NCBI RefSeq assembly: GCF_009914755.1
Contig: NC_060926.1
Direction: 5' to 3' (one strand)
DNA from: the human T2T-CHM13v2.0 reference genome, Homo sapiens
Length of the DNA stretch: 64,000 nt
This document shows, in pieces, positions 11,838-39,418 of this stretch; the stretch's first letter is position 1, and every line of letters begins with the position of its first letter. Under the pieces are notes generated by a model, which saw only the letters and a program-made list of their open reading frames with translations, was not told where the DNA came from and did not search any database. The translations under genes were made by a program, and so were the position numbers.

Positions 11838-11895
11838 ATGTCACAGCCTGGGCTCTGGGTGGGCCTGGTCCCTCTCCTGGTTGCTGCCACTGCAG
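11838..11895 (+). pseudogene. Exon 1 (coding part): signal peptide MSQPGLWVGLVPLLVAATA-G
   Basis: ATG with A at -3; 19 mostly hydrophobic codons ending A-T-A; consensus phase-1 donor CAG|GTGAGT. Confidence 0.75.
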
Positions 11896-12453
11896 GTGAG
11901 TCAACAGCGAGACAACACAGTAACACCCTGCACAGGGCCTAGAGCCTACACCTGCCTTCTCTGTCAGCCTCATCAGCTCTATGCAGTGAGGACGCAAGGC
12001 TGAGAGAGGTAAATTGCTTGGCTGAGGGCATGCCTCCAGTAAGGATCAGGTCCAGGTAGGAAACCAAGACATAGCCTTCACTGCTGCTGGGGAGGTGCCT
12101 GAGGATGGGGCGGGAGGGGGCACATGCTCACCAGCCTCCCCTTTCTGGGTTTCTCTGACCCACCCTCTGTTCCTCGTCTTCAGGCTTCAGCTCTCATCCC
12201 TGACCCAAGGGAGGCATTTCCCACACAGCTTTCCTCCCTTCCGGGGCTCTCAGGGATGGCGCCCTCCCTCCACCCACTCTGAACCTTTTCTGGAGCCCCT
12301 GAATCCCATGCAGCCTCAAGAGGTTCCTGATGCCCTAATGGATGTTAGCTTTTCTCTGTGAATTGTCTGTCTCCTTTCCTTGGGAGGGAGCAAGGCTGGG
12401 CTTCACATGACACAAGTACTAGGATTTTGCTTTGTCAAAGGAATGCATATGAT

Positions 12454-12503
12454 TTGTGTGTGTGTGTGTGTGTGTGTGTGTGTGTGTGTGTGTGTGTGTG
12501 TGT
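12454..12503 (+). repeat. (TG)n microsatellite
   Basis: About 24 TG units. Confidence 0.97.
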
Positions 12504-13476
12504 ATATAGTATTTTCCACTTATTGCCTATAATTCAGAGGTAGGTATCGTGTCCCAATTTTGCAAGTGATAAATCAGTCTGAGAGAAGTTGCTAACTTGC
12601 CCAAGGTCACACTGCAAGTGGGTGGTAGAGCTGGGATTTCAGCCAGATCTGTCTGTCTGTCCCCAAAGCCTGCGGCTTCCCCACTGGAACCTGGAGCCTC
12701 TCAAGGCCTCCAGAAGGATTTGCTGAGCAGTTTCAAGATAAAGCTCAGTCAGCCCTCGCTTGGTCTTCAGTCCCGAAGGAGGCCACAAGCTGCCTTCGTG
12801 CCCAGCACAGGTTTGGTTTGCGTGAGTGGCTGAGGATGAGGCAGGAGCCCACACCAAGCTTCCTGACTTGCCAAGGGCACAGACAGGGGCTTGGATGCAC
12901 TGCACCCGCACCCAGGCCAGCCCTCCCTCCAGGGCTTCAGGGTAGCTTTGTGAGGTCACTCAACTGCTTTGGGTCTCAGCCTCCCCAGGTGTAAATGAGA
13001 GTGTTTCTGTGCCAGGAGATGAAATGTCAGCTCCACTATTCTATGATGTTGATTGCAAGGCGCCCTGAGCTCCTGGAAACTCTAGGAGGTGATGATGATA
13101 ACTGAGCCCCTGTGGCTTCCTCCCAGCTTAGGTTACCAGGCTCCTGGGCCTCACAGCCAGCCTGTGGCCTGTGTTACATGACCTCTCTGCTTTTCTCTCC
13201 CTGCAATTCATGCCAGCTGTGTCCTGAGCAGCCGACCTCGGCACCAGCCACCACGTCCCGTGTCCTCAGCGCAGGCTTGCTGTTACAGCTGTCACGAATT
13301 GCAGTGTTGGGCTGAAGTCACACCAATGGAGATGGCCAGCTCAGAGGGGCCTTCTGCAGAGATGAACGGGAAGCAGGGCTCTCATACAGGCTCTTCACTC
13401 TTTGCAGGAACGGCTATCCCCTTCCCCCAAGGTGGAGCTGACAGCCACTGCCTGTGCCTTGTTGTCTGCCTGGCAG

Positions 13477-13757
13477 GCCAGCACTCCATGGCTGGGAGCA
13501 ACCTGCAGTGCCCCCTGGGCTTTTAGTAAGGAGCAGACATCCCGGTGTTCCAGGAAGATAGGAGGGGAGGGAGGGAAGGGCAACACTGCCTAGGCAGGTT
13601 CGTTCCACAATGGACCTGAGTGCAAAGGGCTCCCAGGGGGATGAACACTGCCTGGAGATGCGTGCCAGGAGTCTGGTGCCCAGAGCCACCAGGGCCCACC
13701 CCAGGATATAGCTCCTGAGACTTTTGACCTTGATGGAGGGTGGGTGCTATGCCAGAA
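13477..13757 (+). pseudogene. Tentative exon 2, heavily disabled (GQHSMAGSNLQCPLGF**...CVPGVWCPEP...)
   Basis: Acceptor ttgttgtctgcctggcag, phase 1 matching exon 1; two Cys motifs in frame; stops at 13524-13529 and later; 3' end uncertain. Confidence 0.4.
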
Positions 13758-13884
13758 GTGAGCTGTGGCCTGGCTCTGCCTCTCACCTGTCCTGTGACCT
13801 GGGCGACTCCTCACCTGGGAAGTGGGGCTGGCGGTCAGAGGTGCCGCTTCCAAAGGACATTCTCTCCCCACTCACCATCAGCAG

Positions 13885-13981
13885 TTCCTGCTGCTGTGGC
13901 CTCCACCCTTGGACCAGATGAAGGAGTTCATCCCTCTGCCCATGACCCCACTGCTCCGACCCCTCCACCTGGGCCCCCATG
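13885..13981 (+). pseudogene. Exon 3 (VPAAVASTLGPDEGVHPSAHDPTAPTPPPGPP)
   Basis: CAGCAG acceptor; donor TG|GTGAGT; the phase-2 end joins the next exon to form a Cys codon. Confidence 0.55.
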
Positions 13982-14288
13982 GTGAGTCCAGATTGATCAC
14001 ACTGGTCTGGAGCCTGCACTGACACCCCAAGGTCTGTGTGGAAAGACCCTGTCCTCAGGCCTTTCGGCATTGACACCAGCTCTGAGTCATCCAGTTGGGG
14101 ACACCCTTCTTTCTCCATCTCAGCCCATCCAGTTGGGACAGGCAAACATTCAGCCAGGCAGTGGGGCAGGCAACTGTACATGCCGGTTTATGTGACGGGC
14201 CTCCATGCCATCTTTGCTGCCCTGGCTGGGCACCTCCTCGGCACACAAGGCTTCTCCTCAGCCACTTTGTTTTCTCTGGTCTCTGCAG

Positions 14289-37577: not shown

Positions 37578-37705
37578 GTGCTGTGGCTGAGGTCCCTTGT
37601 AGGCCCGGCTCCTACTGTGGGCCTCAGACGGGGCTGCCCCCACTCTGCCCCGGGGGGCTATGCCTGCCCTGTCAGCTCCTCCACCTACAGTGGCCTGGGG
37701 CAGCG
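37578..37705 (+). pseudogene. Exon (GAVAEVPCRPGSYCGPQTGLPPLCPGG/fs/YACPVSSSTYSGLGQR)
   Basis: Acceptor ccctgtctcttcag; donor CG|GTGAGT; +1 frameshift at the G6 run (37652-37657). Confidence 0.9.
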
Positions 37706-37968
37706 GTGAGTTCCTTCCCCCTACCCCCCCAAGGGTCTGAGCCCCAACCCCAGCCCTGGAACTGCTGTCAGCACCCTATGTGAGGCCCCACCATGACAAG
37801 CATGTGTGCCTCAGAAATCCAGCCAAAGGGCAGGGCCCAAAAGCAAGCCCTGGTGACCCTCTGCCTGGGCTTCCCAGCTAGGGCCAGCCCCTGCCTCTGC
37901 CCCAGGGAAGGTGGGGTGAGGAAGCACATTGCCCTGGGATGCCCCATCAGAGTGCAGGCTCATCCTGG

Positions 37969-38160
37969 TGGGGCAGCCAGATGGAGCTCACAAAAATACA
38001 GCACGCCTAGTTACATTTGAATTGCCGGTAAAGGACAATGCATTTTTACTGTAAGTATGGCCCATGCAATATTGGGGGTGCACTTCTACTAAAATCATTC
38101 TCATTGTTTATTTGAAATTTGAATAGGACTGGGCATGGAGTATTTCATCTGGTAAGCCCC
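37969..38160. mobile_element. MER53-like palindromic hAT MITE
   Basis: Imperfect palindrome gccagat...aaaatacag...gtaagtatggcccatgcaatattggg...gtatttcatctggtaagccc. Confidence 0.7.
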
Positions 38161-38469
38161 ATCCCGTGTCTGGGACTAACACCCTGACATCAGATCCACT
38201 CCACAACACCCCTCTGCCCAGGGTGGAATGGGCAGGCAGTGCCGGCCTGGTTAACTGGGCATGGCTCATCCACCACCAGAAAGGCAGCTTGGTGCCGTGG
38301 CCCCACCAGACACAAGGCAACCCCAGGACCCCTGACTGGGACAGTAGCAGAGTCCCCGTCCGCTAGCAGCTGAGGCCCCAGGCCAGGGAAAGTCGGCCCC
38401 CGCTAGCGAGAGAACCCACCGCACACACAGGTTCCGGCAGCATGAACCAGCCGGGCTCTGTCTCTGCAG

Positions 38470-38673
38470 CTGTGTCTTTCCCCATTACTGCCCCCCGGGC
38501 AGTGCCCAACCTCGTGCCTGCCCTGGGGGCTCCGAAGCCCTGAATGGGACCAGCCTCAGGGTCTCTGAGGAGATATGCTGCCTGCCGCCTCTGTGAAGCG
38601 GGCACCTACCGCAGCCGGGCCCTGGATGCTCTACCCTTACAGCCCTGCCCGCCTGGATTCAGCTGCCCCCAGG
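38470..38673 (+). pseudogene. Exon (CVFPHYCPPGSAQPRACPGGSEALNGTSLRVSEEICC/fs/RLCEAGTYRSRALDALPLQPCPPGFSCPQ)
   Basis: Acceptor ctctgtctctgcag; donor AGG|GTGAGT; frameshift at tgctgcctgccg (~38576-38587). Confidence 0.9.
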
Positions 38674-39205
38674 GTGAGTCCCTGGGAGGCCTGGGCAGGA
38701 GCAGGGGGACCGGGACTGGAGGTGACCCAGAGTGGAGATCAGTGAGGCGGGTGGAGGCGCAGGCAGGGAGGGCCCCTCAGAGCCTGGGGACAGCCCAAGA
38801 GGCCTGGAGCAGCCCAAGACACAGACCCAAGAACATGTGGAGGATGGGGACACAGAGCAGGTGAGTGTCAGCTGCCTCCGTGTCAGGTTTAAAAGTCCTC
38901 TAGACACAGGGCAGAGCAGCATGCACACAGATGTGTCGGAGCCAGTGGCCCAGGCACTCTGGAGAGAAGGAAAGCCACTGCCCAGCGCCCCGCACCTGAC
39001 TGAGAGGGAGACCAAGGGGCTGGCGGGGAGGGTGAGGGGTTACAGGGCACAGAGCCCTCTACTGCCCCCACAATCTAGATTCTTCCCCCATTTACTGCAT
39101 TGTTTCCCCCCTCCCTCAGCAGGCATATCCCTACCCTGGACACCCCCAGTCCACTCTCAGTCCCTGCCTCGGCTGGGGCAGAATTTCCCCTCTGTGTTCC
39201 TCCAG

Positions 39206-39418
39206 GGTCAGAGAGCTACCAGGGCCATTCCTGCCCGGTGGGCCACTACTGCCCTGCAGGGACTCGCAGCCCAAGGCCCTGCCCAGCAGGGACCTTCAGA
39301 AGCAGCAGCAGGGCCAGGGCAGCTGAAGACTGCCGGCTCTGCCCTGCGGACACCTTCAGTGCCCTGCCTGGACAGGTGGGCTGCCTCACCTGCCAGAGCG
39401 CCGCTTTCTCTCCACCAG
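39206..39418 (+). pseudogene. Last recognisable exon (GSESYQGHSCPVGHYCPAGTRSPRPCPAGTFRSS...CRLCPADTFSALPGQVGCLTCQSAAFSPP)
   Basis: Acceptor ctctgtgttcctccag; followed by CAG|GCGAGT (GC donor); no stop codon. Confidence 0.9.

What the first reader, a model, noticed from the sequence alone, without database searches (positions are those of the whole stretch)
11838..39418. Hidden ~29-exon disabled gene for a giant Cys-rich repeat surface/secreted protein
Seen: short + strand segments with consensus splice sites whose codon phases mostly chain across about 27 kb. They encode a signal peptide, a Pro-rich region, and more than 1,100 aa of tandem CPxG[HYF][YF]CP..PCPxGT[FY]..C..CP modules. Knowledge: this signature fits Pfam PF07699 (GCC2_GCC3/Ephrin_rec_like) arrays, found in large uncharacterised animal proteins and in protist cysteine-repeat modular proteins. 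Inference: I know no functional human protein with an array this long, so this looks like a lost vertebrate gene. From memory (unverified), mouse Gm9195 or zebrafish si:ch211-286b4.4-type genes are candidate orthologues. The family's function is unknown to me.
Basis: partly seen in the sequence, partly recalled or inferred. Interest (0 to 1): 0.9.

Follow-up and report, generated by a model that had tools for sequence, protein, structure and literature searches.

The report
Broken relic of giant Cys-repeat gene
This stretch next to NPHP1 is the decayed front two-thirds of a giant cysteine-repeat membrane-protein gene (the mouse Gm9195 gene) that other mammals still carry but humans have lost, and today it is only copied into non-coding RNA.

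Summary
The + strand between 11.8 and 39.4 kb holds a colinear chain of about 24 homology-supported exons (about 1,250 codons) for a signal peptide followed by tandem CPxGxxC / Ephrin_rec_like (PF07699) modules. The motif occurs 21 times on the + strand and 0 on the - strand.

The best matches are mammalian proteins named 'predicted gene 9195'.

The human copy is dead. It carries three in-frame stops, at least six frame breaks, damaged splice sites and lost cysteines. About 1,400 codons are deleted around 36.0-36.3 kb. The membrane-proximal domain, transmembrane helix and tail are missing from the window.

Whole-genome searches of the T2T assembly found no intact parent:
- One 99-100% identical, equally broken inverted twin on the other side of NPHP1 (the known 358-kb repeats).
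- Four or five 3' exons on chr22q11.1.
- Two more decayed terminal exons on chr13q12.

RefSeq's five lncRNAs reuse the old exons. The 'SCUBE3-like' protein-coding model LOC124905946 is a fragment of two pseudo-exons.

Verdict: an undescribed, fragmented unitary pseudogene, solid but of moderate interest.

The parts
11838..11895 (+). Exon 1: ATG plus signal-peptide-like MSQPGLWVGLVPLLVAATA, GTGAGT donor
   Evidence: Weak matches to the N-termini of Tupaia P0047 and Mustela P0074. The same N-terminal motif appears in the Lontra, Rousettus and Phyllostomus models (listing).
13408..13525 (+). Exon 2, Cys-containing N-terminal piece. It overlaps exon 1 of lncRNA LOC124906060.
   Evidence: 53% identity over 43 aa to Tupaia P0047 residues 42-84. 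AG acceptor and GTAAGG donor.
13882..15285 (+). Candidate exons 13882-13981, 14289-14376 and 15117-15285 (RefSeq lncRNA exons). Phases chain from exon 1 to 14376. The coding status of these segments is unproven.
   Evidence: No protein match at E<=1e-3. By eye, 15189-15285 resembles the 'LLHRQSPQLPALPHR' stretch of the Lontra and Phyllostomus models (listing).
20387..20579 (+). Repeat exon (E10)
   Evidence: 84% identity to mangabey P0126. HSPs from 245 of 311 proteins.
20993..21129 (+). Repeat exon (E11)
21480..21704 (+). Repeat exon (E12) ending in an in-frame TGA at 21701-21703, where orthologues have Q or R
22167..22307 (+). Repeat exon (E13) with a frameshift near 22264, plus Cys-to-Tyr and Tyr-to-Cys changes. 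It equals a lncRNA exon.
24306..24429 (+). Repeat exon (E14) with a conserved Cys changed to Arg (CVPRPAS). It equals a lncRNA exon.
25974..26113 (+). Repeat exon (E15) with a frameshift between 26045 and 26051
26652..26804 (+). Repeat exon (E16)
27832..28033 (+). Repeat exon (E17) with two conserved Cys lost (Cys to Arg, Cys to Tyr). Its last base is C where the phase and the orthologues need G.
28782..28898 (+). Exon (E18) with a weak GTACTC donor
28985..29131 (+). Repeat exon (E19) with an in-frame TGA at 28987-28989. The baboon and mangabey models skip this exon.
30843..30965 (+). Repeat exon (E20) whose acceptor reads AA, not AG, at 30841-30842. The spliced ORF P0116 skips it.
31740..31879 (+). 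Repeat exon (E21). Its 5' end is out of phase with the upstream exons, and a conserved Cys is changed to Gly (SEGLSC).
33126..33328 (+). Best-preserved repeat exon (E22), 67 codons. One base appears to be missing from the C-run at its 3' end, giving a phase break into E23.
   Evidence: P0116 runs out of frame after this exon.
33975..34124 (+). Repeat exon (E23) with an in-frame TAG at 34085-34087 (GHCCG*ENL). It equals a lncRNA exon.
34318..34497 (+). Exon (E24), 88-93% identical to the orthologues
35056..35693 (.). Intronic minisatellite (periods 11, 23 and 44). It is the only part that differs much between the two chr2 copies.
35852..36070 (+). Exon (E25). Homology ends at 35967, and the rest is diverged with a TGA at 36064-36066. 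This is the left edge of the large internal deletion.
36213..36251 (+). Relic of one mid-gene exon (PQPRTCEIGTFQP) stranded between two deletions
   Evidence: 87.5% identity to fox P0127 residues 1577-1592 and 83% to camel residues 1162-1173. Coordinates.
36293..36463 (+). Repeat exon (E27), the right edge of the deletion
36571..36795 (+). Repeat exon (E28). It equals a lncRNA exon.
37578..37705 (+). Repeat exon (E29) with a frameshift at about 37658
38470..38673 (+). Repeat exon (E30) with a frameshift at 38582 and a Cys changed to Leu. Its 3' part is 'coding exon 1' of LOC124905946.
39206..39418 (+). Last exon present (E31). The donor reads GC, not GT. All downstream exons of the gene are absent from the window.

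Best explanation
Window 11.8-39.4 kb (+) is the 5' two-thirds of the human orthologue of the mammalian gene called 'predicted gene 9195' (mouse Gm9195). Here it is a fragmented unitary pseudogene.

The intact protein, as read from the lemur and Peromyscus predictions:
- A type I membrane protein of about 2,800-3,000 aa.
- Signal peptide, then dozens of tandem disulfide-rich Ephrin_rec_like/GCC2_GCC3 modules.
- A beta-rich membrane-proximal domain of about 340 aa with no Pfam family.
- One transmembrane helix and a tail of about 400 aa with predicted helical stretches.

In the lineage leading to humans the gene was cut after the exon ending at 39418. The 5' part stayed beside NPHP1. Some 3' exons now lie on 22q11.1, and the last two exons, more diverged, lie on 13q12.

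The 5' part then accumulated stops, frameshifts and splice-site damage. After the split from Old World monkeys it lost about 1,400 codons in two deletions at 35.97-36.29 kb. It was later copied, with all its lesions, into the inverted 358-kb repeat on the other side of NPHP1.

What remains does nothing as a protein. The old exons are still spliced into RNAs that RefSeq calls lncRNAs, and LOC124905946 is a spurious ORF made of two pseudo-exons.

Shown: homology, colinearity, the lesions, the twin copy, and the absence of an intact copy.
Inferred: the order and dating of events, the ancestral chromosomal position, and the function of the intact protein (a cell-surface adhesion or receptor-like molecule).
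For: Homology and strand bias:
- CPxGxxC occurs 21 times on + and 0 on -.
- 21,735 tblastn HSPs from 311 proteins are all on the + strand.

Orthologues named 'predicted gene 9195' appear among the hits. Colinear chains:
- Mangabey P0126: 22 HSPs, 1,286 aa, 79.8% identity.
- Tupaia: 12 HSPs, 69% identity.
- Fox: 16 HSPs, 69% identity.
- Peromyscus: 17 HSPs.

Lesions are read directly from the sequence.

Internal deletion:
- P0126 residues 974-2425 and P0125 residues 326-1708 have no counterpart between 35967 and 36283.
- Genome-wide searches with mid-gene queries gave only 37-48% paralogous hits (39 of 39 candidates scored, 38 of 38).

The 3' part is absent from the window. It is found on chr22 at 17,521,061-17,523,089 and on chr13 at 23,820,001-23,822,186.

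Twin copy at chr2:110.443-110.466 Mb:
- 99.3-100% identical outside the minisatellite.
- Same lesions: 18 of 22 HSP translations are identical, 2 differ by one residue or one extra end residue, and 2 were not fetched.
- It matches the inverted 358-kb LCRs described in PMC4671654 (passages).

Comparative and expression evidence:
- Lemur P0229 is contiguous from repeats to tail, whereas the macaque and siamang models are tail-only.
- Transcription and splicing: RefSeq lncRNA exons coincide with pseudo-exons (hub table).
- P0116 is a 100% identical spliced 197-aa ORF that skips two damaged exons.
- Mouse Gm9195 is annotated protein_coding and is expressed (PMC12528612 supplement).
Against: - Ancestral states were inferred from predicted proteins of other species, not from aligned genomic DNA. 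Some of those models are themselves patched. The mangabey model, for example, contains read-through segments.
- Synteny does not back orthology simply. Mouse Gm9195 is on chr14, while Nphp1 is on mouse chr2 from my recall.
- The whole-protein genome searches scored only 17 of 716 and 17 of 1,091 candidates, and a 'stricter first look' was used. Absence of further pieces is therefore not absolute.
- Peromyscus residues about 2025-2260 and about 2460-2670 were not found anywhere. They may be deleted or may have been missed.
- The chr13 exons are more diverged from the siamang tail (49-75%) than an orthologous relic should be. That piece may be an older duplicate.
- Only one human haplotype (T2T-CHM13) was examined.
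Confidence: 0.9

Rival explanations
1. History variant. The 2q13 piece is not the ancestral site. It is a duplicative transposition of the 5' part of a gene that once sat elsewhere (for example 22q11.1 or 13q12, both pericentromeric duplication zones), and the source copy decayed or was deleted later. The alternative is a single breakage in situ.
For: - The relics lie in three regions, two of them near centromeres.
- The 2q13 region is duplication-prone (PMC4671654).
- The chr13 exons look older than the rest.
Against: - The pieces on chr2, chr22 and chr13 do not overlap in exon content. That fits breakage better than duplication.
- Baboon and macaque already carry a single-copy orthologous segment beside NPHP1 (PMC4671654 passages).
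- The mangabey model on one 5.6-Mb contig already ends at the same exon.
Confidence: 0.3
2. The locus still makes a protein, either an unannotated human gene or a truncated secreted Cys-rich product such as the RefSeq model LOC124905946.
For: - The locus is transcribed and spliced (hub table; P0116).
- LOC124905946 has a 146-codon open frame.
Against: - The reading frame is interrupted by three in-frame stops, at least six frame breaks, a lost acceptor and lost cysteines.
- The LOC124905946 ORF starts inside a frameshifted exon, has no signal peptide and runs into the intron past a GC donor.
- The segments between exon 5 and exon 10 have stops in most frames.
Confidence: 0.03
3. It is an ordinary duplicated pseudogene with an intact, functional parent gene elsewhere in the human genome.
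For: A second copy exists 280 kb away.
Against: - The second copy carries the same lesions and the same deletion.
- Genome-wide searches with five protein queries found nothing else except the short chr22 and chr13 relics.
- No human protein of this family appeared among the 120 listed hits of either repeat-region search.
Confidence: 0.02

Closest known systems
Mouse Gm9195 (MGI:3779838, ENSMUSG00000109446) and its mammalian orthologues named 'predicted gene 9195'
   Same: - Same module type and order, with colinear exon-by-exon matches at 60-90% identity from non-primate mammals.
- Same N-terminal signal motif.
   Different: - The rodent gene is annotated protein_coding. In neonatal mouse cochlea it is enriched in inner hair cells: IHC mean 30.3 against OHC mean 1.3, in Table S4 of PMC12528612.
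- The human copy lacks the middle about 1,400 codons and the whole 3' third, and it is riddled with stops and frameshifts.
- No paper on the gene's function was found. 'Gm9195' occurs in 2 papers, both only in gene lists.
Pfam PF07699 Ephrin_rec_like (GCC2_GCC3) proteins: SCUBE1-3 and the apicomplexan cysteine repeat modular proteins (CRMPs)
   Same: - Same cysteine module. Orthologues pass the Pfam cut-off.
- A Toxoplasma 'GCC2 and GCC3 domain-containing protein' is a distant hit (P0186, 30% identity).
   Different: - No CUB or EGF domains, so it is not a SCUBE.
- The RefSeq name 'SCUBE3' for LOC124905946 rests on the shared module only.
- CRMPs act in rhoptry secretion and invasion (PMC9815656; title and abstract start seen in the search listing only). 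Nothing here shows a shared function.
- No solved structure is related by sequence.
Human unitary pseudogenes (genes intact in other mammals and dead, without a parent copy, in humans)
   Same: - Disabling lesions.
- Predicted intact orthologues in other orders and in a lemur.
- No intact copy in the genome.
   Different: - This relic is scattered over three chromosomes.
- Its 5' part is present twice because it sits in a recent inverted segmental duplication.
The 358-kb inverted low-copy repeats flanking NPHP1 (358PROX and 358DIST; PMC4671654)
   Same: The window and its twin lie on either side of NPHP1 in inverted orientation and are 99.3-100% identical. This matches that paper's description.
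   Different: That paper's main text does not contain the words 'pseudogene' or 'chromosome 22' (0 occurrences each). The gene relic inside the repeat is not described there.

Membership tests
Orthologue of the Gm9195 ('predicted gene 9195') family | Colinear multi-exon protein homology, higher than to paralogous repeats | tested here: met
   - P0126 chain: 22 HSPs, 1,286 aa, 79.8% identity.
- Non-primate mammals reach 60-90% identity per exon.
- Paralogous repeat hits reach only 37-48% identity.

Orthologue of the Gm9195 ('predicted gene 9195') family | Shared intron positions with the orthologues | not testable with these tools
   No genomic DNA of another vertebrate was available. The only indirect sign is that HSP ends coincide with human AG/GT sites and that partial gene models of other species begin at the same exon starts.
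Orthologue of the Gm9195 ('predicted gene 9195') family | Conserved synteny | not testable with these tools
   Mouse Gm9195 is at chr14:72.66-72.73 Mb. The positions of the neighbouring mouse genes are only recalled, and no orthologue's neighbourhood could be read.
Pfam PF07699 Ephrin_rec_like | HMM score at or above the gathering cut-off of 23.1 bits | tested here: inconclusive
   - Human single-exon fragments: 17.5 and 21.9 bits in 2 of 20, and nothing in the other 18 for this family.
- Orthologues: 72.6 bits (camel) and 38.2 bits (Cricetulus), met in 2 of 6. Baboon scores 21.6 bits, and there is nothing for Fukomys, Tupaia or P0089.
- A joined human exon sequence was not scanned.
Unitary pseudogene | Disabling lesions in the coding exons | tested here: met
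   - Stops at 21701-03, 28987-89 and 34085-87.
- Frame breaks near 22264, 26046-50, 31740, 33325, 37658 and 38582.
- Acceptor AA at 30841-42 and donor GC at 39419-20.
- Deletion of about 1,400 codons, and the 3' third missing.

Unitary pseudogene | No intact copy in the same genome | tested here: met
   T2T-CHM13 was searched with P0125, P0126, P0056, P0284 and a mangabey mid-gene stretch. Only the broken twin and the chr22 and chr13 relics were found. Caveat: only part of the candidates were scored.
Unitary pseudogene | Functional orthologue in other species | tested here: inconclusive
   Long open predicted proteins exist in rodents, carnivores, bats, a lemur, birds and frogs. The mouse gene is annotated protein_coding and is expressed. 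No functional study was found.
SCUBE family (the RefSeq name of LOC124905946) | Signal peptide, EGF-like repeats and a CUB domain | tested here: not met
   The 146-aa model is the frameshifted 3' part of exon E30 plus E31 with intron read-through. Only PF07699 was seen in the locus or its orthologues, with no CUB or EGF hit.

The most novel reading that the evidence does not exclude
A giant surface protein that is widespread in vertebrates, and is inner-hair-cell-enriched in the mouse, was destroyed in the ancestor of monkeys and apes by a chromosome break. The break scattered its exons over what are now 2q13, 22q11.1 and 13q12. The severed cytoplasmic-tail exons survived for tens of millions of years as a separate open reading frame, as in the macaque LOC106993129 and siamang models, before being lost in humans. 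This would be gene death by rearrangement, with a possible 'orphan' protein born from a receptor tail.
Probability: 0.25. Interest if true: 0.6.

Novelty: new member of a known kind. Interest (0 to 1): 0.45.

Why it matters
- **Annotation.** The finding explains five 'uncharacterized lncRNAs' and one doubtful protein-coding model as remains of a single ancient gene, which should correct the annotation of both NPHP1-flanking repeats.
- **Gene loss.** It adds a large, widely conserved but unstudied membrane protein to the list of genes that humans, and probably all monkeys and apes, lack. This matters when mouse Gm9195 data (hair cells, NKT cells) are carried over to humans.
- **Dating.** The lesions shared by the two 358-kb repeats, and the deletions absent from the mangabey model, give dated markers for the history of a disease-relevant rearrangement hot spot.

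Tried and rejected
- **Exon chaining without homologues.** A composition- and splice-score dynamic programme found the strong exons but also added false ones. It was superseded by protein-guided mapping.
- **Pfam on single ORF fragments** was nearly blank, because modules are split by introns.
- **Structure of the membrane-proximal domain.** AlphaFold2 on a 26-sequence alignment gave mean pLDDT 50.9 and pTM 0.36. 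This is too poor for a fold search, so none was run. The protein atlas gave only weak cupredoxin-like leads (TM 0.29-0.48, under the tool's bar). Pfam found nothing in that domain. phmmer of the camel protein against PDB sequences found nothing.
- **More flanking DNA on chr13 and chr22.** The extent of those relics is therefore known only from about 5 kb (chr13) and 140 kb (chr22).
- **Literature searches:**
  - The six RefSeq LOC names: 0 papers.
  - ENSMUSG00000109446: 0 papers.
  - 'Ephrin_rec_like' together with 'pseudogene': 0 papers.
  - 'ch211-286b4.4': 1 preprint, which lists it among testis-biased zebrafish genes.
- **Rejected readings:** a chance motif cluster (strand bias 21:0), a processed pseudogene (introns are retained) and a SCUBE paralogue (no CUB or EGF domains).

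Full report
**Observation.**
- Over the whole window in six frames, CPxGxxC occurs 21 times on the + strand and never on the - strand. PCPxG occurs 19 and 0 times.
All were on the + strand, and only 42 lay outside my exon list.
- Chance is therefore excluded.

**What it is related to.** One well-preserved exon (33128-33328, 67 codons), searched against longer proteins, returned 162 proteins. The mammalian hits were 80-93% identical:
- camel P0003, 1,755 aa;
- Tupaia P0047;
- baboon P0087;
- Fukomys P0077;
- 'putative gene 9195' of Cricetulus (P0076);
- a fish 'si:ch211-286b4.4' (P0089).

A second search, with the camel protein, gave longer models:
- 'Predicted gene 9195' of Peromyscus (P0125, 2,799 aa);
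- a sooty mangabey model (P0126, 2,767 aa);
- fox, otter, bat, bird and frog proteins of 2,500-2,950 aa.

Pfam sees PF07699 Ephrin_rec_like in the orthologues (72.6 and 38.2 bits against a cut-off of 23.1). In single human exon fragments it scores only just below the cut-off.

**Colinearity and exon map.** Protein-guided mapping gives colinear chains:
- mangabey: 22 HSPs, 1,286 aa, 79.8% identity, spanning 19425-39417;
- Tupaia: 12 HSPs;
- fox: 16 HSPs;
- Peromyscus: 17 HSPs.

With splice sites and phases checked, I count 24 exons plus one exon relic that have protein support. These are E1, E2, E10-E25 and E27-E31, together 3,750 nt or about 1,250 codons.
- Exon 1 (11838-11895) starts with ATG and a hydrophobic signal-like peptide. 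The same peptide opens the Tupaia, Mustela, Lontra, Rousettus and Phyllostomus models. Its statistical support is weak.
They have no protein match, except that 19425-19695 matches the start of the mangabey model only. I leave their coding status open.

**Why it is dead.** All of the following were read directly from the sequence against the orthologues.
- In-frame stops at 21701-21703 (TGA), 28987-28989 (TGA) and 34085-34087 (TAG).
- Frame breaks:
  - near 22264;
  - at 26046-26050;
  - at the 5' end of the exon starting at 31740;
  - in the C-run at the 3' end of the exon ending at 33328;
  - near 37658;
  - at 38582.
- Splice damage: an AA in place of the AG acceptor at 30841-30842, and a GC donor at 39419-39420.
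- At least six conserved cysteines replaced.
- A spliced, 100% identical 197-aa ORF from a short unnamed contig (P0116) skips exactly the two exons with the stop and the lost acceptor, and it runs out of frame after 33328. The locus is therefore spliced, but non-productively.

**The two big losses.**
- *Middle of the gene.* Mangabey residues 974-2425 and Peromyscus residues 326-1708 have no counterpart between 35967 and 36283.
  - A 13-codon relic of one mid-gene exon at 36213-36251 shows that there were two deletions.
  - The missing part is not elsewhere in the genome. A Fukomys mid-gene protein (all 39 candidates scored) and a 196-aa mangabey stretch (all 38 scored) hit only other repeat exons of the two chr2 copies, at 37-48% identity.
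  - Because the mangabey model has the middle part, the deletions postdate the split from Old World monkeys. This rests on a predicted model.
- *3' end.* Nothing downstream of 39418 matches the last 775 residues of the Peromyscus protein. The mangabey model also stops there.

**Rest of the gene in the human genome.** Searches of the window's own assembly found the following.
- A second copy of the whole relic at chr2:110.443-110.466 Mb.
  - It is in inverted orientation and 99.3-100% identical outside an intronic minisatellite.
  - It has the same lesions and the same deletion. Of the 22 mangabey-chain HSPs, 18 translate identically, 2 differ by one residue or one extra end residue, and 2 lay in parts not fetched.
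  - This is the pair of inverted 358-kb repeats flanking NPHP1. According to PMC4671654 (passages read), that pair arose in apes, and Old World monkeys have a single copy.
- Four or five exons on chr22 at 17,521,061-17,523,089 (+). They cover the second half of the membrane-proximal domain, the transmembrane helix and the first tail exon, with one frameshift.
- The last two exons on chr13 at 23,820,001-23,822,186 (+), with a stop and frameshifts. These are more diverged than expected for a simple orthologous relic.
- Peromyscus residues of about 2025-2260 and about 2460-2670 were not found.
- No intact copy exists.

**Comparative picture**.
- The mouse lemur model P0229 runs without a break from repeat exons through the transmembrane helix into the tail.
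- The tamarin model has the transmembrane exon out of frame.
- The macaque (LOC106993129) and siamang models are tail-only ORFs.
- The break therefore predates the Old World monkey-ape split and may predate the New World monkey split. This is inference from gene models.

**The intact protein.**
- From the lemur and Peromyscus sequences it has a signal peptide and a very long array of disulfide modules. These are followed by a conserved membrane-proximal domain of about 340 aa with no Pfam family, one transmembrane helix and a long tail with conserved helical motifs.
- A structure prediction of the membrane-proximal domain was too poor to use (pLDDT 50.9). Atlas matches hint weakly at a cupredoxin-like sandwich. 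This is a lead only.
- Mouse Gm9195 lies at chr14:72,663,453-72,729,278 (-) and is annotated protein_coding. [quoted passage not shown]
- It also appears in an NKT-cell signature list (passage read).
- A zebrafish gene of the same name type as P0089 is testis-biased (passages read).
- My best guess is a cell-surface adhesion or receptor-type molecule with a rigid extended ectodomain. Nothing tested here shows that.

**Annotation consequences.**
- RefSeq's lncRNA exons coincide with pseudo-exons, for example 13882-13981, 14289-14376, 22167-22307, 24306-24429, 33975-34124, 35852-36070 and 36571-36795 (hub table).
- LOC124905946 ('SCUBE3') is the post-frameshift part of exon E30 joined to E31, and it reads through the GC donor into the intron. 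It has no signal peptide and no CUB or EGF domain.

**Novelty.**
- I found no description of this relic. 'Gm9195' occurs in 2 papers, both only in gene lists.
- The six LOC names, the Ensembl id, and 'Ephrin_rec_like' with 'pseudogene' gave 0 papers.
- The main text of the NPHP1-repeat paper does not contain the word 'pseudogene'.
- Pseudogene databases and GENCODE could not be queried, and supplements of bioRxiv preprints were closed.
- It is a new member of a known kind (a unitary pseudogene). Its unusual features are that it is scattered over three chromosomes and that its 5' part is present twice.
- I score interest at 0.45. The finding is solid and useful for annotation and for the history of the NPHP1 repeats, but it is not a surprise in kind.

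Noticed in passing
window 35056-35693: A minisatellite (periods 11, 23 and 44; about 57 copies of the 11-mer) lies in the intron before the deletion. It is the only stretch where the two chr2 copies differ much (88-98% identity with many gaps, against 99.3-100% elsewhere).
   Followed up: partly
window 38544-39516 (LOC124905946): The RefSeq 'protein-coding SCUBE3-like' model is a 146-codon ORF. It is made of the frameshifted tail of one pseudo-exon plus the last pseudo-exon with read-through into the intron, and is probably an annotation artefact.
   Followed up: yes
G000:C22:17521061-17523089 (loci L013, L018, L028): Relics of 4-5 exons of the same gene (second half of the membrane-proximal domain, the transmembrane helix and the first tail exon) lie on chr22q11.1, with one frameshift at 17521690-93.
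   Followed up: partly
G000:C13:23820001-23822186 (loci L059, L060): Relics of the last two exons of the same gene lie on chr13q12, with an in-frame stop and frameshifts. They are only 49-75% identical to the siamang tail model, so this may be an older duplicate.
   Followed up: partly
proteins P0275 (macaque), P0284 (siamang), P0272 (tamarin): Monkeys and a gibbon have separate gene models made only of the tail exons of this gene. The macaque ORF starts just after the transmembrane helix. These models may represent a surviving orphan ORF.
   Followed up: no
protein P0116 (197 aa, from a 1,287-base unnamed contig): A spliced ORF 100% identical to window exons (27.9, 28.8, 31.7, 33.1 and 34.0 kb). 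It skips the exons at 28985 and 30843, and it looks like a transcript of this locus sitting in a non-human data set.
   Followed up: partly
window about 39500-41000: G+C falls from 0.60 to 0.42 right after the last pseudo-exon and stays at 0.34-0.43 up to 50 kb. This is a candidate position for the old breakpoint.
   Followed up: no
window 12470-12520: A (GT)n microsatellite is read as 'CVCVCVCV' in two frames. It lies between exon 1 and exon 2.
   Followed up: no
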